Part shown: positions 46,511-53,426 of the stretch, piece after piece
Numbering within the stretch: position 1 is the first letter of the stretch
Layout: every line of letters begins with the position of its first letter
The notes under the pieces: model-generated
Told to the model about the DNA's origin: nothing
The model's database searches: none
What the model saw: only the letters and a program-made list of their open reading frames with translations
DNA from: a candidate division WWE3 bacterium UBA1401
GTDB lineage: Bacteria; Patescibacteriota; WWE3; UBA101185; UBA10185
Assembly: GCA_002305115.1 (NCBI GenBank)
Contig: DBQF01000003.1
Location: 65,338-129,337 of the forward strand
Reading direction: 5' to 3'
Length of the DNA: 64,000 bases
Made by a program: the position numbers and the translations under genes

Positions 46511-47105
46511 TGTATTAGTGCCGGTTGTTATTGAAAAAGAACCCGGTGGCTACGAAAGATCTTACGATATCTACTCCAGACTTCTTAAAGATAATATTGT
46601 ATTTGTAACCGGCCCAATTGATATGGCCATGGCAAATACATTTGTCGCACAACTCTTATTCCTGGAAAACCAGGATGAAAACAAAGACATCAATATCTAT
46701 ATAAACTCACCCGGTGGGGAAGTTTATGCAGGTAGAGCAATGTTCGATACCATGCAGCACGTTAAAAACGACGTGGTAACTATTAACGTCGGCTTGGCGG
46801 CATCTGCCGCAGCTATGATCCTTGCAGGTGGAACAAAAGGGAAGAGGTTTACACTTCCCGGGGCATATTCTTTAATTCACCAGGTTCTTGGTGGTGTGGA
46901 AGGTCAGGCAACAGATGTTGAAATTACCGCCCGCCATATGATAGAACTTAAAAATCAGTATGCAAAGATTTTAGCTGAACGAACAGGACAAGAGCTTGAA
47001 ACTGTAAAGAAGGATATTGAAAGGGATAAGTGGATGAGCGCACAAGAGTCTCTGGATTATGGTATTGTAGACAAGATTATGGAACCTAAGGCTAAACAAG
47101 CCTAA
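46503..47105 (+). CDS. clpP: ATP-dependent Clp protease proteolytic subunit
   Basis: It contains YINSPGG, GLAASAAAMIL (Ser) and LIHQ (His). The start at MNNVLVP overlaps tig by 8 nt. Confidence 0.93.
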   Translation: MNNVLVPVVIEKEPGGYERSYDIYSRLLKDNIVFVTGPIDMAMANTFVAQLLFLENQDENKDINIYINSPGGEVYAGRAMFDTMQHVKNDVVTINVGLAASAAAMILAGGTKGKRFTLPGAYSLIHQVLGGVEGQATDVEITARHMIELKNQYAKILAERTGQELETVKKDIERDKWMSAQESLDYGIVDKIMEPKAKQA

Positions 47106-47115
47106 GGTATAACTT

Positions 47116-47137
47116 CCATGGCCCTTTTGGGCCATGG
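47116..47137 (+). terminator. GC-rich hairpin after clpP
   Basis: The hairpin is ccatggccc-tttt-gggccatgg. No trailing T-run follows. Confidence 0.45.
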
Positions 47138-47146
47138 GAGACTTAG

Positions 47147-47221
47147 GGGCTCCTAGCTCCCTTCTGCGTCCGCCTACGCCAAAAGGCTTCGGCGGACTAC
47201 GCAGGGCAAGCAGTTGGTTAG
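47147..47221 (+). pseudogene. tRNA-Val 5'-fragment (13 + 11 nt identical to the real gene) split by a 51-nt GC-rich hairpin
   Basis: gggctcctagctc (47147-47159) and cagttggttag (47211-47221) match tRNA-Val positions 1-13 and 13-23. Confidence 0.5.
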
Positions 47222-47264
47222 TGACTTAAAAAGCTGTACAAAAGTGTGCTTTGAAGATAATTTT

Positions 47265-47341
47265 GGGCTCCTAGCTCAGTTGGTTAGAGCGTCGCAGTGA
47301 CATTGCGGAGGTCACAGGTTCGAGACCTGTGGAGCCCACCA
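47265..47341 (+). tRNA. tRNA-Val(GAC), CCA encoded
   Basis: Acceptor gggctcc/ggagccc and anticodon loop gtGACat. Confidence 0.9.
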
Positions 47342-47405
47342 CGCTAAGCGTGGTGGAGGCTCGCTAAGCGAGCCCACCAGAAAAGTTCCCTGCAGGCAGA
47401 TGCCC

Positions 47406-48866
47406 TTACCTCCCCCGCAGCACCACATTCAGCGGGACACCAAAACGGGTCACCTCAAACACAGTCTTACCAGAAAACCCTTCCTTCCTTAAATTATCCC
47501 AATCACACACCACAAAATCCGCCTCACTAGAGGATCCTACCATCTCAAATTTGCCTTCCGAATAATACTGCATAGCAGCAGGTACATTGCAGGCATATAC
47601 CTTAGAAAAAGGCTGAGTCCTCAACCATTCGGCTGCTTCTTTATAACTTGCTCCCCAATAATCCAGCTCATAAACATCACTTGCACCCTTAAGCCCCCCA
47701 ACCAACTCGTTAAAGTACACATACTGATACGGATGCAGCCGGATTACTGCACAGCAAACCAACACAAAGTTAAGAAGCGCAAAAGCAAGAACAGGCAGCC
47801 GAAACTTGCTCTTTATACTAAAAAGTTCTGCAAAAAAAAGCGTTGCGGCAAAAACAATAACAGGTAGTAGATACAAAAAATGTCTTAACCCATTATAAAT
47901 AACGGGATCTAGCGCAAAATAGAGCCCAAAATTCACAACAACACATAACCAAAGCAATTGCAAAAATCTAGATACTTTAGCGTAGTAACTACTTAGCAAA
48001 AAGCCCACCAAAACATAAAGAGGTGTAGTAATAATAAGCCATAACGGTAAATAACTTAACGGCCGGTCATACTTCGTGAGAAAACTACCCATAAACAAAA
48101 TTGTATTATCCCAAGCACCAAACCTTTGGGCATTGTAAATTAATTCCAATGCATTTCTAACCACATTCGCTCCCACATATGGAAAAGTCAACACAGTAGC
48201 AAACCCGGAAACACAAGCCACAATAATAACATCCACCAACTTCTGGCCTAAATTTTTATTTTGCAATAGTTCAAAAAGCAAAAAGATAAGTAGTAAAGAC
48301 GCGCCAATAATGCGCAAGCTTTGGGTAAGCCCAAACAATACACCTAATACCAAATACTTGGCAGGAGTTTTTTTAGTGGAAAAAAGATAAATCGCTGCCA
48401 AGGAGATGAAGTATAAAACCGCAAATGGCATATCTTTAGGATTAGCCGGCACATGCCCCAGCCAGCGAGGCGTGGTAAATAGCATAACTACAGCCAAGAT
48501 CGCAAAGCATACTTTCCCTGATAAATGGTAAGCGAGATAGTAAAAACAAGCAAAAAGAATAAATCCAAAGGCCATATTAAGCAGGTGATACCATTCGTAA
48601 TAATTCTTACCATTCACTACTGAAAGCGCTGCACTATAAATTCTATTGTGTTTATCCAGTAGGGGAGAGTCTTGGGCAGCTGTAACTTCCCGTTCCAAAA
48701 CATCTTCATAGAAGGGAGTTCTGAAATAAGTAGCCCAAATACAACCTTTTCGATAATTCAATTCTTCGTCTGCCGTAATACCGTAATCTTTGTAAGTACT
48801 AAGCGCAAATAAGGTATACAGACTTGCAATAAGCAGGAAAACAAGATGCACATAGTGTTTTCTCAT
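47406..48866 (-). CDS. GT-C fold glycosyltransferase. It is a paralogue of 50392..51909.
   Basis: It contains YGITADEELNY after TM1, NPKDMPFA, VIYNGLRHFLYL and LHPYQYVYFNEL..LDYWGASYKEAAEWLR. I prefer the start at MRKHYV (48866). Confidence 0.7.
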   Translation of the reverse strand: MRKHYVHLVFLLIASLYTLFALSTYKDYGITADEELNYRKGCIWATYFRTPFYEDVLEREVTAAQDSPLLDKHNRIYSAALSVVNGKNYYEWYHLLNMAFGFILFACFYYLAYHLSGKVCFAILAVVMLFTTPRWLGHVPANPKDMPFAVLYFISLAAIYLFSTKKTPAKYLVLGVLFGLTQSLRIIGASLLLIFLLFELLQNKNLGQKLVDVIIVACVSGFATVLTFPYVGANVVRNALELIYNAQRFGAWDNTILFMGSFLTKYDRPLSYLPLWLIITTPLYVLVGFLLSSYYAKVSRFLQLLWLCVVVNFGLYFALDPVIYNGLRHFLYLLPVIVFAATLFFAELFSIKSKFRLPVLAFALLNFVLVCCAVIRLHPYQYVYFNELVGGLKGASDVYELDYWGASYKEAAEWLRTQPFSKVYACNVPAAMQYYSEGKFEMVGSSSEADFVVCDWDNLRKEGFSGKTVFEVTRFGVPLNVVLRGR

Positions 48867-48867
48867 A

Positions 48868-48880
48868 TATAATGATTGTA
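48868..48880. promoter_or_regulatory. Back-to-back -10 boxes (TATAAT on plus at 48868-73, TACAAT on minus at 48875-80)
   Basis: Each box lies 8 nt upstream of the ATG of its divergent gene. Confidence 0.5.
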
Positions 48881-48881
48881 C

Positions 48882-50408
48882 ATGCAAAAAATCAAGAAAA
48901 AAACCTGGGGCATACTTACTGCACTTTGCTTGTTCGCACTAATGCTTCAGCTAACTAAACACGTTACATTCATGCAAAACGATGATTGGTACTACTACAG
49001 GGAAGTTACAAAGTTTCTAGCCGGAGACTTTGTTCTAGACAAAGATATAGCACCCACCTTTTACTTACAGGGAATAATGGCAATGCCTTTCGCTAAAGCT
49101 CTTGGTATAAGCAAACTTCCGGTGCTAACTCTGGCAGTGGCAGTATTGAATTTTTATTTACTCTACATAATCTTAGTGGAACCCTACAAAAAAGGGGTTG
49201 TTCAAGCGCTTTTGGTTGCATTACTGTTCTTTGTTACACCTCTGAATATTTATACGGTACTGGGGTTTATGACCGAACAATATTTTTTACTTTTTATGCT
49301 TTTGGCCATCTACTGCTTTAGGCAATATGATCAAACGCAAAGTACCAAGTGGCTGGGCGGGTTTCTGCTGGCTGTAATAGCCAGTTTTTTTGTTAGGCAA
49401 ATTGGCTTGTTACTACCAATAACTGCCGGCATGTACTGGCTGATTAAGAAGCAATATACGCACGCACTTAAAGCGCTTGCAGTAACACTAGTTTTGGGGC
49501 TATTCTATGCATTTATCTTCCCCAAAACTCCAGAAATGCAAGGCAAAACTTTGGACTTTACTAACCTTACAAAGTTTGATTACAGCTATGCGATTATTTA
49601 TGGCTCGTTAGTCTATCTTGCTGCGGTTACTTTGCCGCTAGTAGCCATCTTTATGTCCAAAAGCCTAAACCGGAAACTTTTGGTAACTATTGCGGTGGCT
49701 GTTGGTCTATACTTTGCACTCCAACAACCGTTTAAACCTATGACAGTTTCGTGGGGGGAATTTCCGTATTTCGAAAACACCTGGGAAAGAACGGGCTTTA
49801 TGGCCAGGGAAATTCACGGTACAAAGTATCAATTTAAGGGCATTTATGACTTGTATTTGCACTGGGATACTTTGGCGAAAATTGGCGTTGCACTTCTTCT
49901 GGCAAGCTTACTGTTTTCCGGAAAGCTAAAACATAACCTATTTTGTATACTATTTAGCACAGGTTATCTGGGCATTATGCTTTTAACACACACTTTTTAC
50001 GATAGATATGTGTTAATTCTAGTCCCCATCTTCTTGATGCTACTAGCAGGCTCTATCAACTTGGGACTATTCGGAAAACTCACACTGATGGCATTCACCG
50101 GCTTTATTGCTTTTTATTCATATACACTGGCAACTGACTATGTACTTGCAGAAGCCTACGTATGGAACAAAGCTACACAATTAACAAACCAGCAAGCATT
50201 AGCTCCAAAAACGATTTTTGCCACCGGTGCCTGGCAAGAACAACATGGCACAGCAGGACCGGAAACAAAGTTTATTTTTAGCTATGATTCACCTCACATC
50301 AATCAGGACCAATTGGCTAACTACAAACTAAAAGAACAAAAGGCTATCGACTATCCATTTAATATCCATATTAATCCGGCTATCTATTTATATGAAAAAA
50401 CTAATTAG
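48882..50408 (+). CDS. GT-C fold glycosyltransferase (ArnT-like)
   Basis: It is polytopic, with MQNDDWYYYRE after TM1. I prefer ATG 48882 to TTG 48876. Confidence 0.6.
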   Translation: MQKIKKKTWGILTALCLFALMLQLTKHVTFMQNDDWYYYREVTKFLAGDFVLDKDIAPTFYLQGIMAMPFAKALGISKLPVLTLAVAVLNFYLLYIILVEPYKKGVVQALLVALLFFVTPLNIYTVLGFMTEQYFLLFMLLAIYCFRQYDQTQSTKWLGGFLLAVIASFFVRQIGLLLPITAGMYWLIKKQYTHALKALAVTLVLGLFYAFIFPKTPEMQGKTLDFTNLTKFDYSYAIIYGSLVYLAAVTLPLVAIFMSKSLNRKLLVTIAVAVGLYFALQQPFKPMTVSWGEFPYFENTWERTGFMAREIHGTKYQFKGIYDLYLHWDTLAKIGVALLLASLLFSGKLKHNLFCILFSTGYLGIMLLTHTFYDRYVLILVPIFLMLLAGSINLGLFGKLTLMAFTGFIAFYSYTLATDYVLAEAYVWNKATQLTNQQALAPKTIFATGAWQEQHGTAGPETKFIFSYDSPHINQDQLANYKLKEQKAIDYPFNIHINPAIYLYEKTN

Positions 50409-51909
50409 CAACCACAGGCTATTTATTTTCTTTGCAGTTAGCTATTTGGTAGTTGGCTTACTAACATATAAAGACTTTGGCCCCACATTCGACGAAGTCA
50501 CCGAGTACACAGCCGGATCTTACCTATATAAATATTACGTAACACCTACCAGCCAAGCCTCAGTACAAGCTTTATTTACCGAAAAACCGGAAGATGTTGA
50601 AACAAGGCATCTGCCCTTATTCAGCGTTTACTCCAGGATCTACCCAATGCTGCTTAGTCTGGCTAATCCCCAAGGCTATTTCGAGTGGTATCACTTAAGT
50701 AATATATTCTTTGGCTTTGGGCTATTTGTATTCGCGTACCTTTTGTTATTGGAAGCAACAGGTAATCCGAAAAAGGCTATTCTGGGACCAATAGCTTTAG
50801 TGCTTACGCCATACCTAACGGGACATATTCCAGGAAATCCAAAAGACATTCCTTTTGCTACTGCTTATCTGGCAAGTATGTATATAATCTACTTACTATG
50901 CAAGCGAAATAGTGACACAAGGGCTAGAGTACTAGCTTTGGGCATAACGTTTGGTGTTACGATGGCACTAAGGGCAGTAGGAATTACTTTACTGGGTATT
51001 TACACAATCTACGCTCTGGCACAACACAAACTTAAACTAAAGGACTGTGTACTGGAAACTATACTTATTGCTATAGTAGCTATTTTAGTCTGGGCAATAT
51101 TACTGCCTTTTATTGGTGCAAATCTGCCAACTAATCTGGTTGAAGTTATATTTAACGCGGCCAATTACAGTGAATGGAACGGCATTATTTACTATTTGGG
51201 AGAATATTTGAGCAAAGAACAAAGGCCCTGGCACTACTTGTTTATATTGATGGCAGTAAAATTACCTATAGCTACTTTAGCTTTATTCGCAGGAAAAATA
51301 GCCAGCGTATTTAAAAAGCCAAAAGTACGAGACATAAATCTACTCCTATTGCTGGCAATCTCCACAAATCTAGCACTCTACTTGGTGACTAAACCTGTGA
51401 TTTACAACGGAGCTAGACATTTCTTATATTTGATTGTACTGATTACGCTAGTTGCGACACTACAGCTAGTGGCTCTCCAGCACAAAGCTTTGGTAGGAAT
51501 TATTATTGTTTATGGCATTTTTACTATGTACAGAATGGTAAAGTTGCACCCATACGAATACGTGTACTTCAATGAACTTACTTTTGGATTGAGCAATGCG
51601 CAACACTTGTTTCAATTGGATTACTGGGGAGCTTCATATAAAGAGGCAGCTGAGTATATTAGAGATTATGCAAGAACTAATAAGCTAGAACACCTAAAAA
51701 TATTTACCTGCGATAACCCATTTGCTGTTGTTTATTACTCCGAATTTGCATTTGACTTAGTTGGCAGTCCAAAAGAGGCTAATCTGCTAATCTGCGATAC
51801 TTTCAGAGACGCTATAAGAAACTTTGACAATAGGTATCCGATTTTTCACACTATTAACCGTGAACATACACCTTTAACATACATCAGGCTTAGACAAGCA
51901 TGGGATTAG
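50392..51909 (+). CDS. GT-C fold glycosyltransferase. It is a paralogue of 47406..48866.
   Basis: It contains FGPTFDEVTEY, NPKDIPFA, VIYNGARHFLYL and LHPYEYVYFNEL..LDYWGASYKEAAEYIR. Confidence 0.7.
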   Translation: MKKLISNHRLFIFFAVSYLVVGLLTYKDFGPTFDEVTEYTAGSYLYKYYVTPTSQASVQALFTEKPEDVETRHLPLFSVYSRIYPMLLSLANPQGYFEWYHLSNIFFGFGLFVFAYLLLLEATGNPKKAILGPIALVLTPYLTGHIPGNPKDIPFATAYLASMYIIYLLCKRNSDTRARVLALGITFGVTMALRAVGITLLGIYTIYALAQHKLKLKDCVLETILIAIVAILVWAILLPFIGANLPTNLVEVIFNAANYSEWNGIIYYLGEYLSKEQRPWHYLFILMAVKLPIATLALFAGKIASVFKKPKVRDINLLLLLAISTNLALYLVTKPVIYNGARHFLYLIVLITLVATLQLVALQHKALVGIIIVYGIFTMYRMVKLHPYEYVYFNELTFGLSNAQHLFQLDYWGASYKEAAEYIRDYARTNKLEHLKIFTCDNPFAVVYYSEFAFDLVGSPKEANLLICDTFRDAIRNFDNRYPIFHTINREHTPLTYIRLRQAWD

Positions 51910-51927
51910 CTGTGCTAGAATAAAGTA

Positions 51928-52734
51928 GTGAGGAGTACAGCCCATATCATCAAATACACCATAATTAGTGCATTCCTGGTATTACTTTCTACATTACTAT
52001 CCTTGAACCTCGTAAATTATGTATTGGCACAGGATTATTTCACCCCACCTGCTACAGTAGTTGCAAAGATAACAGCCCTTTTACTCGGGATTGCTTATGC
52101 TAATGCTTTAACAGTAGGTGCTTGGGGTAAATGGGAACACTATGTATTCTTTCCGGGAAGTATTGCTGCTGGTGTTTATCTAGTATTAGTAAATGTTAAC
52201 CAAACACACGCAGTAAATTTTGCCGCGTTAACATTATGCATTTTGTTATACCAAACTATAAAGGCTACTGCCCTAAAAGGGCTGTTTGTCAAATTCCAGC
52301 CGCGCTTTGTTTACAAATCATCAACCAAAGGTATCTTTTTGGTGTTCTCACTATTAGCAGCCTCTACTATCTTGATTAGCCCACAAGCAGAAGCCCCGAT
52401 AGACTTGGGTCAGAAAATCGCAGAAACTACTGTTAAACAGGCCATAAATTTAACCGAAGCAGATATTTCGCTAAAAACACTCTTGCAAGATAGTATTATT
52501 GGGCTTAACATGCAGAATCAGATCAGAGACCAAGTAAATTCCTTATTACAACCCTACAGAAGTTTCTTAACCCCATTAATTGCGGTAGCAGTGTTTTCTC
52601 TAGTTCAAGCGTTAGGAGTACTGGTCTACCTGGTGTTTAGTATTACAATTAGTGCCTTTTTATGGATAATGCGCAAATCAGGAATATTAAAAGTGGAATA
52701 CCAAACTACTCAACAAGAGATTCTATCGTTCTAG
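51928..52734 (+). CDS. Polytopic membrane protein, unknown function
   Basis: It has a GTG start 6 nt after TGcTAGAAT and about 6 TM segments. Confidence 0.5.
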   Translation: MRSTAHIIKYTIISAFLVLLSTLLSLNLVNYVLAQDYFTPPATVVAKITALLLGIAYANALTVGAWGKWEHYVFFPGSIAAGVYLVLVNVNQTHAVNFAALTLCILLYQTIKATALKGLFVKFQPRFVYKSSTKGIFLVFSLLAASTILISPQAEAPIDLGQKIAETTVKQAINLTEADISLKTLLQDSIIGLNMQNQIRDQVNSLLQPYRSFLTPLIAVAVFSLVQALGVLVYLVFSITISAFLWIMRKSGILKVEYQTTQQEILSF

Positions 52735-53394: not shown

Positions 53395-53426
53395 GGAGGT
53401 CGGACCCGGCACCGGGTCCGACCTCC
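53395..53426. promoter_or_regulatory. Two GGTCNGACC cores forming a perfect 15-bp inverted repeat
   Basis: The sequence is ggaggtcggacccgg-ca-ccgggtccgacctcc. Confidence 0.65.

What the first reader, a model, noticed from the sequence alone, without database searches (positions are those of the whole stretch)
48864..48884. Two divergent GT-C genes separated by 15 bp, with interleaved -10 boxes (back-to-back leaderless promoters)
Take the ATG at 48866 (minus, MRKHYV...) and the ATG at 48882 (plus, MQKIKK...) as the starts. The whole spacer is then atataatgattgtac. It contains TATAAT (48868-48873), 8 nt before the plus ATG. It also contains TACAAT on the other strand (48875-48880), 8 nt before the minus ATG. 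Neither gene has a Shine-Dalgarno sequence. Both mRNAs would be leaderless or nearly so. The two RNA polymerase binding sites would overlap, which predicts mutually exclusive or coupled transcription of the paralogous glycosyltransferases.
Basis: partly seen in the sequence, partly recalled or inferred. Interest (0 to 1): 0.6.

Follow-up and report, generated by a model that had tools for sequence, protein, structure and literature searches.

The report
Minimal two-way leaderless promoter
Two oppositely oriented membrane glycosyltransferase genes of an uncultured CPR (WWE3-like) bacterium are separated by only 15 bases. Almost all of those bases belong to two promoter -10 boxes, one per strand, and the layout is conserved in eleven distant relatives, so it is a real but unsurprising example of a bidirectional promoter making two leaderless mRNAs.

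Summary
CAT 48864-66 is the minus-strand ATG and ATG 48882-84 is the plus-strand start. The spacer is atataatgattgtac, with TATAAT (48868-73, +) and TACAAT (48880-75, -) each 8 nt before its own ATG. No SD is present.

The motif alone is not rare (about 1.3 per 64 kb by chance). Its position and conservation are what count. In 11 independent orthologous gene pairs (proteins 44-51% identical) the spacer is 13-17 nt. The block TATA[A/C]T-n-ATT[G/T/C]TA-C-ATG is invariant at 11 of 14 positions, and the changes fall where -10 hexamers tolerate them. The flanking codons are only 35-43% identical.

The lineage uses leaderless starts widely. In the window, 25 of 58 gene starts have a TAnnnT box 5-10 nt upstream (control 8.5%, p=7e-12), and none of these has an SD.

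The longer TTG starts are not conserved. Both proteins have a GT-C fold but are not detectable paralogs of each other.

This is most likely a bidirectional promoter of the known 12-bp-type class that gives two leaderless mRNAs. The transcription start sites are unmapped, and mutual exclusion remains an inference. It is a new member of a known kind, of moderate interest.

The parts
47406..48866 (-). Gene A: 486-aa polytopic membrane protein with a GT-C glycosyltransferase fold, starting MRKHYVHLVF
   Evidence: ORF. Weak Pfam PMT_2 hit (17.7 bits, below the 26.1 cutoff). AF2 model pLDDT 84. The top 18 Foldseek PDB hits are all GT-C enzymes: PglB/STT3, DPY19, PMT, ALG3, AftB, Emb. Orthologs 44-51% identical.
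48864..48866 (-). ATG start codon of gene A (CAT on the + strand). Its T and A occupy positions -14 and -15 of the plus-strand promoter.
   Evidence: ATG is present in all 11 orthologous loci. N-termini are M-(K/R-rich)-PH[IV]VF, then TM1. The source-contig gene caller instead chose the GTG at codon 6 (P0067, 481 aa), which is not conserved in orthologs.
48867..48881 (.). The whole 15-nt intergenic spacer, atataatgattgtac. With both start codons it forms a 21-bp quasi-palindrome.
   Evidence: Orthologous spacers are 13 nt (x3), 15 nt (x6), 16 nt and 17 nt.
48868..48873 (+). -10 hexamer TATAAT, predicted promoter of gene B, 8 nt before ATG 48882
   Evidence: TATAAT in 9 of 11 orthologous loci and TATACT in 2 of 11. 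Only hexamer position 5 varies. It is always exactly 8 nt from the B ATG.
48874..48874 (.). Single base between the two hexamers, unconstrained
   Evidence: T in 5, G in 3 and A in 3 of the 11 loci.
48875..48880 (-). -10 hexamer TACAAT (ATTGTA on the + strand), predicted promoter of gene A, 8 nt before ATG 48866
   Evidence: TACAAT in 6, TAAAAT in 3 and TAGAAT in 2 of the 11 loci. Only hexamer position 3 varies. Distance to the A ATG is 6-10 nt.
48881..48881 (+). Invariant C directly before the B ATG. It gives a pyrimidine(-1)/purine(+1) context for initiating at the A of ATG.
   Evidence: C in 11 of 11 loci. The role in start-site choice is inference.
48882..50408 (+). Gene B: 508-aa GT-C-fold membrane protein, starting MQKIKKK. 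An invariant NDDW motif follows TM1.
   Evidence: AF2 pLDDT 92.8. The top 27 Foldseek PDB hits are all GT-C: STT3, ArnT, ALG9, PMT, AftD, Emb, PglB. Pfam PMT_2 scores 22.5 bits, below cutoff.
50392..51909 (+). Gene C: 505-aa paralog of gene A. It overlaps the end of B by 17 nt and is probably co-transcribed with B.
   Evidence: BLASTP A vs C: 38% identity, E=4e-101. No -10 box and no SD upstream. Co-transcription is inference.

Best explanation
The 15-bp spacer is a complete, pseudo-symmetric bidirectional promoter that depends on its -10 elements alone.

How it most likely works:
- The housekeeping sigma factor recognises TATAAT on the top strand and transcribes gene B (and probably C) rightwards. 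Alternatively it recognises TACAAT on the bottom strand and transcribes gene A leftwards.
- Each hexamer lies in the other promoter's discriminator/start region. Essentially the same ~13 bp (about 48867-48881) would therefore be melted in either orientation. The predicted start sites are 12 bp apart (A48880 and A48868) if initiation is 7 nt after the hexamer, or 16 bp apart if it is at the A of each ATG.
- Both mRNAs would begin at, or 2 nt before, their AUG. They would be translated as leaderless mRNAs without an SD, as about 40% of transcription units in this genome appear to be.
- Only one polymerase can occupy the site at a time.

What is shown: the sequence, the start codons, the conservation pattern and the lineage-wide leaderless signature. 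What is inferred: the start sites, promoter activity and any competition.
For: 1. Anatomy is confirmed.
2. There are eleven independent orthologous divergent pairs, with starts called by the databases' own gene callers and proteins 44-51% identical. They keep a 13-17-nt spacer with TATA[A/C]T-n-ATT[G/T/C]TA-C-ATG. Eleven of 14 columns are invariant. T1, A2 and T6 of both hexamers never change. Variation is confined to hexamer positions 5 and 3 and the base between the boxes. Identity is 0.88 in the block, against 0.35 and 0.43 in the adjoining codons.
3. The genome-wide signature matches. Of 58 gene starts in the window, 25 have TAnnnT 5-10 nt upstream (mode 6 nt), against 8.5% of control ATGs (p=6.6e-12). 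Ten other genes have an SD core, and none has both. The same holds for 18 of 35 B-family homologs in other WWE3/Patescibacteria genomes (p=1e-9). This matches the GeneMarkS-2 'group C' description of a Pribnow box 6-8 nt from leaderless gene starts (PMC6028130).
4. Both genes use ATG in all 11 loci, in line with the strong AUG preference of leaderless mRNAs (PMC8459731).
5. Divergent start sites 12 bp apart are one of the enriched symmetric -10 configurations in E. coli bidirectional promoters (Warman et al., bioRxiv 10.1101/2020.01.31.928960).
6. Other compact divergent pairs with paired boxes exist in the lineage, with spacers of 26-28 nt.
Against: - No TSS, RNA or protein data exist for this organism.
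- There is no -35 match.
- There is no TGn extended -10, although 11 of 17 strong leaderless-type boxes in the window have one. Those positions are taken by the partner's start codon, so both promoters may be weak.
- The 8-nt distance is longer than the modal 6 nt. With canonical start-site choice this gives a 2-nt leader, which reduces leaderless translation in model bacteria (PMC8459731).
- The composite motif is expected about 1.3 times per 64 kb by chance.
- A 13-bp palindrome is also what a dimeric regulator would bind.
Confidence: 0.75

Rival explanations
1. The conserved quasi-palindrome TATAATnATTnTA is chiefly an operator for a dimeric transcription factor that co-regulates the two glycosyltransferase genes. 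The promoters would lie elsewhere, or the factor would bind on top of them.
For: The block is an inverted repeat (5 of 6 complementary per arm) and is conserved. Palindromic motifs do occur in this genome's promoter regions, for example GGTCnGACC.
Against: The substitution pattern is asymmetric between the arms (position 5 in one, position 3 in the other). It leaves exactly T1, A2 and T6 of both hexamers invariant, as expected for -10 elements. The same hexamer types at the same distance precede many unrelated genes. The exact motif occurs nowhere else in the window. This rival could be true in addition to the promoters.
Confidence: 0.1
2. Both genes are transcribed from promoters further upstream, inside the opposite gene. 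The AT-rich spacer then serves only as an unstructured, SD-independent translation initiation region on leadered mRNAs.
For: AT-rich, unstructured initiation regions can support SD-independent initiation (general knowledge). No TSS data are available. Neither box has a -35 or a TGn.
Against: Mere AT-richness does not explain invariance of specific bases with free variation at the hexamer's tolerant positions. Nor does it explain the fixed 8-nt register. No conserved promoter-like element is seen at fixed distance inside the neighbouring genes. The sharp 6-nt peak of box-to-ATG distances across the genome is a promoter signature, not a composition effect.
Confidence: 0.1
3. Chance: two -10-like hexamers happen to lie in an AT-rich gap, and one or both annotated starts are wrong (TTG 48876, TTG 48887 or GTG at codon 6).
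For: The motif alone is expected about 1.3 times per 64 kb. The loose pattern TAnnnTnAnnnTA occurs 40 times in the window. The source-contig gene caller chose the GTG at codon 6 for gene A.
Against: The block and both ATGs are conserved in 11 loci while neighbouring codons have diverged. The alternative starts are not conserved. Spacer lengths are not multiples of three.
Confidence: 0.03

Closest known systems
Bacterial bidirectional promoters (Warman, Forrest, Wade & Grainger; E. coli and other bacteria), specifically the minor class with divergent start sites about 12 bp apart
   Same: There are -10 elements on opposite strands in a pseudo-symmetric register. The key T/A positions of one element pair with the start region of the other. 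The polymerase can bind in either orientation, and one binding event excludes the other.
   Different: The commonest E. coli class has start sites 18 bp apart with almost fully overlapping hexamers. Here the hexamers are adjacent and crossed. Both products would be leaderless mRNAs, so the two start codons sit inside the promoter and the whole intergenic region shrinks to 13-17 bp. No start sites are mapped here.
Leaderless transcription units of 'group C' bacteria (Actinobacteria, Deinococcus-Thermus; GeneMarkS-2 classification; M. tuberculosis TANNNT promoters)
   Same: A TAnnnT box lies 6-8 nt before the start codon. There is no SD and no clear -35. Roughly 25-50% of transcription units are leaderless, with SD kept for other genes. 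Closely juxtaposed divergent promoters and divergent leaderless pairs are noted in M. tuberculosis.
   Different: The lineage is a low-GC CPR/Patescibacteria (WWE3-like) organism. I found no description of leaderless usage for it in the searched library. Extended -10 (TGn) is common here (11 of 17) but rare in M. tuberculosis (7%).
Lambda PRM/cI and other classic single leaderless genes next to divergent promoters
   Same: The leaderless mRNA starts at the A of AUG and comes from a promoter paired back-to-back with a divergent one (own knowledge; PMC10491246 abstract).
   Different: In lambda the divergent promoters are tens of bp apart and only one transcript is leaderless. Control is by repressor operators.

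Membership tests
Leaderless (group C-type) bacterial transcription unit | -10-like hexamer (TAnnnT) ending about 6-10 nt upstream of the start codon | tested here: met
   TATAAT and TACAAT each lie 8 nt from their ATG. This is conserved in 11 loci.
Leaderless (group C-type) bacterial transcription unit | No Shine-Dalgarno sequence upstream | tested here: met
   The spacer has no GGAG, GAGG or AGGA. Across the window, box and SD are mutually exclusive, with 0 of 58 genes having both.
Leaderless (group C-type) bacterial transcription unit | AUG start codon (strong preference in leaderless mRNAs) | tested here: met
   ATG at both genes in 11 of 11 loci. The preference is documented in PMC8459731.
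Leaderless (group C-type) bacterial transcription unit | Genome-wide positional enrichment of the promoter box at that distance | tested here: met
   25 of 58 against 8.5% of controls, p=6.6e-12, peak at 6 nt. 18 of 35 against 9.9% in related genomes.
Leaderless (group C-type) bacterial transcription unit | Primary 5' end of the mRNA mapped at, or within a few nt of, the start codon | not testable with these tools
   No transcriptome data are accessible for this uncultured organism.
Bidirectional promoter sensu Warman et al. | -10 elements on opposite strands arranged so that divergent start sites fall 7-25 bp apart | tested here: met
   The geometry gives predicted start sites 12 bp apart (48880 and 48868), or 16 bp apart if at the ATGs. 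The 12-bp spacing is an enriched class. The start sites themselves are predicted, not measured.
Bidirectional promoter sensu Warman et al. | Pseudo-symmetry of the sequence | tested here: met
   The arms CATATATAAT and CATGTACAAT match at 8 of 10 positions around 48874. Both hexamers are conserved.
Bidirectional promoter sensu Warman et al. | Divergent transcripts detected experimentally | not testable with these tools
   Needs TSS mapping or in vitro transcription.
GT-C glycosyltransferases (both genes) | GT-C fold: polytopic N-terminal membrane module resembling STT3, ArnT or PMT | tested here: met
   AF2 models have pLDDT 92.8 (B) and 84.0 (A). The top Foldseek PDB hits are all GT-C enzymes with probability about 1.0, TM 0.4-0.5 and E-values 8e-5 to 3e-3.
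GT-C glycosyltransferases (both genes) | Pfam PMT_2 (GT39/GT83-like) match above the gathering score | tested here: not met
   17.7 and 22.5 bits against a cutoff of 26.1. There were no NCBIfam hits and no PDB sequence hits with profiles. The two genes are therefore GT-C by fold only and are not assigned to a CAZy family.
GT-C glycosyltransferases (both genes) | Conserved acidic residues in the first extracytoplasmic loop after TM1 | tested here: met
   B has invariant N35-D36-D37-W38. A has invariant D27, D33 and E34 in YKDYGITADEE. That this loop carries the catalytic acidic motif is established knowledge for GT-C enzymes; catalysis was not tested.
   BLASTP of A against B gives E=0.46. A against the third gene C gives 38% identity, E=4e-101.

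The most novel reading that the evidence does not exclude
This would be the smallest possible two-way promoter. A single ~13-bp melted bubble carries a -10 hexamer on each strand, with the two start codons as its borders, and it has been kept for a long evolutionary time in a CPR clade. With no -35, no TGn and no room for a regulator, the orientation of each initiation would be a stochastic choice. The choice would be set only by the relative strength of the two hexamers (TATAAT vs TA[C/A/G]AAT). This would hard-wire a fixed ratio, or anticorrelated bursts, of two GT-C enzymes that act in one envelope-glycan pathway. It would also mean that WWE3-type CPR bacteria rely on leaderless mRNAs for about 40% of their transcription units, a trait not yet described for them.
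Probability: 0.25. Interest if true: 0.6.

Novelty: new member of a known kind. Interest (0 to 1): 0.4.

Why it matters
1. It is a natural, evolutionarily validated minimal bidirectional promoter. It could serve as a clean substrate for studying how RNA polymerase chooses an orientation when the -10 element is the only signal.
2. It shows that a CPR/Patescibacteria lineage uses actinobacterial-style leaderless initiation. The -10 box, often extended (TGn), lies 6-9 nt before ATG at roughly 40% of gene starts.
3. This matters for gene-start calling in CPR metagenome bins. The public call for gene A in the source contig starts 5 codons too late.
4. It also bears on how reduced CPR ribosomes initiate translation.
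5. The strict linkage of the A and B genes suggests that the two GT-C enzymes work together.

Tried and rejected
- A full sigma-70 scan (-35 plus -10) over 47000-52000 found nothing at the spacer, and fewer sites overall than in shuffles.
- Aligning 36 nt upstream of each box in the 11 loci showed no conserved -35 or TGn. The only conserved upstream signal is the coding motif PH[IV]VF of gene A.
- The composite motif is not enriched over chance in the window, so the argument rests on position and conservation.
- The metagenome-contig scan with the A-ortholog alignment returned only distant family members (<=41% identity) and no additional close orthologs. The close orthologs came from exact-protein contig look-ups.
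- PDB profile searches and NCBIfam gave no hits, so fold prediction was needed to confirm GT-C.
- Literature searches for leaderless usage in CPR/Patescibacteria found no description. The library is incomplete, so this is absence of evidence only.
- The longer TTG starts and the GTG at codon 6 were considered and rejected as not conserved.
Full report
OBSERVATION.
- CAT 48864-48866 is the ATG of a 486-aa minus-strand ORF (MRKHYVHLVF...).
- ATG 48882-48884 starts a 508-aa plus-strand ORF (MQKIKKK...).
- The 15 nt between them are atataatgattgtac.
- TATAAT occupies 48868-48873 on the top strand. ATTGTA at 48875-48880 reads TACAAT on the bottom strand.
- Each hexamer ends 8 nt before its own ATG. 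One base (g48874) separates the hexamers, and one base (c48881) separates the right hexamer from the plus ATG.
- There is no purine-rich SD.
- The mechanical ORF list extends both ORFs to TTG codons at 48887 (minus) and 48876 (plus).

IS IT MORE THAN CHANCE? The motif taken alone is not. In first-order Markov simulations of the window, two >=5/6 hexamers on opposite strands with a 1-nt gap occur 1.3 times per 64 kb on average. The loose pattern TAnnnTnAnnnTA occurs 40 times. A classical -35/-10 scan finds nothing at the spacer. The case therefore rests on two other lines of evidence.

LINE 1: THE GENOME USES LEADERLESS-TYPE STARTS WIDELY.
- Listing the 50 nt upstream of 58 long ORFs shows many genes with a Pribnow-like box a few bases before the ATG and no SD. 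Others have clear AGGAGG-type SDs.
- Quantified: 25 of 58 starts have TAnnnT (>=4/6 to TATAAT) ending 5-10 nt upstream. Only 8.5% of 1832 other ATGs do (odds ratio 8.2, p=6.6e-12).
- The distance histogram peaks sharply at 6 nt (12 genes), then 7, 8 and 9 nt.
- Ten genes have an SD core, and none has both signals.
- Eleven of the 17 strong boxes are preceded by TGn, an extended -10. The background TG frequency is 6%.
- The same box position (mode 6 nt) precedes 18 of 35 homologs of the plus gene in other genomes named candidate division WWE3 or Patescibacteria, against 9.9% of control ATGs (p=1e-9).
- This is the signature GeneMarkS-2 calls group C: a Pribnow box 6-8 nt from the start of leaderless first genes, with 25-50% of operons affected. 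It is typical of Actinobacteria and Deinococcus-Thermus (PMC6028130). M. tuberculosis promoters are likewise TANNNT without a -35 (PMC3898074).
- I found no paper describing this for CPR bacteria in the searchable library.

LINE 2: THE ORTHOLOGOUS SPACERS.
- Homologs of both proteins come from WWE3/Patescibacteria, and the closest are only 44-51% identical.
- Exact-protein contig look-ups and one genome locus gave ten further independent loci in which the orthologs of the two genes are divergent neighbours: L040, L027, L041-L045, L126, L127 and L129. L128 repeats L040.
- In eight of the ten further loci (L040, L041-L045, L126, L127, L129) both starts were chosen by the databases' gene callers, not by me. 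In L027 (a genome contigs locus with no gene table) I assigned the two ATGs from the ORF translations.
- Spacers are 13 nt (3 loci), 15 nt (6 loci including the window), 16 nt and 17 nt.
- Anchored on the plus-gene ATG, the preceding 14 nt read TATA[A/C]T - n - ATT[G/T/C]TA - C. Eleven of 14 columns are invariant.
- The three variable columns are position 5 of the top-strand hexamer (TATAAT x9, TATACT x2), the base between the hexamers (T/G/A), and position 3 of the bottom-strand hexamer (TACAAT x6, TAAAAT x3, TAGAAT x2).
- T1, A2 and T6, the positions that matter most in -10 elements, never change in either hexamer.
- Mean pairwise identity is 0.88 for the block, against 0.35 and 0.43 for codons 2-15 of the two genes.
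- Indels are confined to the side next to the minus gene. In the 13-nt spacers the first T of TATAAT/TATACT is the T of the neighbour's CAT, so not one base of the gap is free.
- No conserved -35 or TGn is seen at fixed distance upstream of either box. The only conserved signal there is a coding motif.

START CODONS.
- ATG is present at both positions in 11 of 11 loci.
- The in-frame TTG at 48876 lies inside the bottom-strand hexamer and is TTT or TTC in 5 loci.
- The minus-strand TTG at 48887 is simply codon 2 (CAA) of the plus gene and exists in 3 loci.
- Spacer lengths differ by non-multiples of 3.
- N-termini of 36 homologs of the plus gene show the same short K/R-rich tail followed by TM1.
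- The paralog at 50392 aligns with the minus gene from residue 7-8.
- In the source contig (Logan SRR5321237_4) the plus gene is called at this ATG. The minus gene is called at a GTG five codons downstream (P0067, 481 aa). That GTG is not conserved in orthologs and is most likely a mis-call.
- Leaderless mRNAs strongly prefer AUG (PMC8459731).

THE GENES.
- Both give sub-threshold Pfam PMT_2 hits.
- There are no NCBIfam or PDB sequence hits.
- AF2 models built on the homolog alignments are confident (pLDDT 92.8 and 84.0).
- Their best PDB matches are exclusively GT-C enzymes: STT3/PglB, ArnT, ALG9/ALG3, PMT, DPY19 and Emb/Aft.
- Each has invariant acidic residues just after TM1: NDDW in the plus gene and D27/D33/E34 in the minus gene.
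- They are not detectable paralogs of each other (E=0.46). The minus gene's paralog is the third gene, 50392-51909 (38% identity). That gene overlaps the plus gene's end by 17 nt and has neither box nor SD, so it is probably co-transcribed.

MECHANISM (INFERRED).
- With the canonical 7-nt step from hexamer to +1, the plus start site is A48880 and the minus start site is A48868, 12 bp apart.
- The first T of each hexamer then pairs with the +1 A of the other transcript. This is one of the symmetric configurations (29, 23, 12, 10 or 7 bp, besides the dominant 18) at which divergent start sites are enriched in E. coli (Warman et al.).
- That choice gives 2-nt leaders (AC-AUG and AU-AUG).
- Alternatively, initiation occurs at the A of each ATG, 16 bp apart. 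That site is preceded by a pyrimidine in both cases, and by the invariant C on the plus side.
- Because even short leaders depress leaderless translation in model bacteria, I favour initiation at or very near the A of ATG. This is not shown.
- In either case the two open complexes would melt essentially the same 13 bp and cannot coexist.
- In E. coli, however, competition at bidirectional promoters is negligible at basal activity and appears only when one direction is strongly activated (PMC12825309).
- The geometry forbids TGn at both promoters, because positions -15/-14 are the partner's start codon. There is no -35, so both are probably modest, constitutive promoters. Their ratio would be set by hexamer quality: the top-strand box is a consensus TATAAT, while the bottom-strand box is 5/6.

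RIVALS.
- A palindromic operator is possible, perhaps in addition to the promoters. It does not explain the -10-specific substitution pattern or the genome-wide box position.
- Upstream promoters with an AT-rich, SD-independent initiation region do not explain base-specific invariance.
- Chance or wrong starts are excluded by the orthologs.

COMPARISON AND NOVELTY.
- The element works like a bidirectional promoter of the Warman/Grainger type and like group C leaderless units. It meets every sequence-level criterion of both. The experimental criteria (mapped start sites) cannot be tested here.
- Divergent leaderless pairs and closely juxtaposed divergent promoters are known in M. tuberculosis.
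- What is particular here:
  - the extreme compaction, a 13-17-bp gap with crossed hexamers and the start codons lying within the -13 to -16 region of each other's promoters;
  - its conservation across a clade;
  - the host lineage.
- More distant WWE3 genomes carry an uncrossed version with 26-28-nt spacers (L002, L018, L047). The 29-nt window pair 11426/11456 has a detected box for the plus gene only.
- I class it as a new member of a known kind, of moderate interest (0.4).

Noticed in passing
window 29669, 29785, 29898, 53398, 53415, 62040, 62096: The palindrome GGTCnGACC, usually extended to GGA(A/G)GGTCnGACC(C/T)TCC, occurs at 7 sites. All are intergenic and lie just upstream of leaderless-type promoters. 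Counting both strands there are 14 matches, against 3.1 expected, and 0 of 100 shuffles reach that number. The two copies at 53398 and 53415 form a hairpin between the truB-like and thrS-like genes. It may be an operator for a dimeric regulator or a small repeat element.
   Followed up: partly
whole window (58 gene starts): The genome has a dual initiation system. About 43% of gene starts have a -10 box 5-10 nt upstream, often extended with TGn (11 of 17 strong boxes), and no SD. About 17% have a classical SD core. No gene has both. I found no published description of this for CPR/WWE3 bacteria.
   Followed up: partly
window 48852-48866 (minus gene start); L130 3501: The public gene call for the minus gene in the source contig (Logan SRR5321237_4, protein P0067, 481 aa) starts at a GTG five codons downstream of the conserved ATG. 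Leaderless starts in this lineage are probably mis-called systematically by RBS-based gene finders.
   Followed up: partly
window 11426/11456 (29 nt); L002 2968/2995 (26 nt), L018 6086/6114 (27 nt), L047 2436/2465 (28 nt): Other very short divergent intergenic regions exist. L002, L018 and L047 carry a -10-like box for each gene in the uncrossed arrangement, with each box next to its own gene. In the window pair 11426/11456 a box was detected for the plus gene only, and for the window pairs 21590/21612 (21 nt) and 1650/1671 (20 nt) one search finds a box within 5-10 nt on one side only. Compact two-way promoters seem to recur in these small genomes.
   Followed up: partly
window 50392-51909 vs L040 5491-7065 and L041 1-971: The third GT-C gene (paralog of the minus gene) is co-directional with the plus gene in the window and overlaps it by 17 nt. 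In relatives L040, L041 and L045, the gene overlapping the plus-gene ortholog's 3' end (by about 25 nt) is of similar size but convergent; its homology to gene C was not tested. The downstream arrangement may therefore have been rearranged while the 15-bp head-to-head junction was kept.
   Followed up: no
window 48882-50408 and homologs (alignment A1): The plus-gene family has a strikingly conserved set of motifs: FMQNDDW after TM1, SWGEFPYFENT-ERTG, GTKYQF and YDRY. It has no Pfam, NCBIfam or PDB sequence match above threshold. It looks like an undescribed GT-C family largely restricted to WWE3/Patescibacteria.
   Followed up: partly
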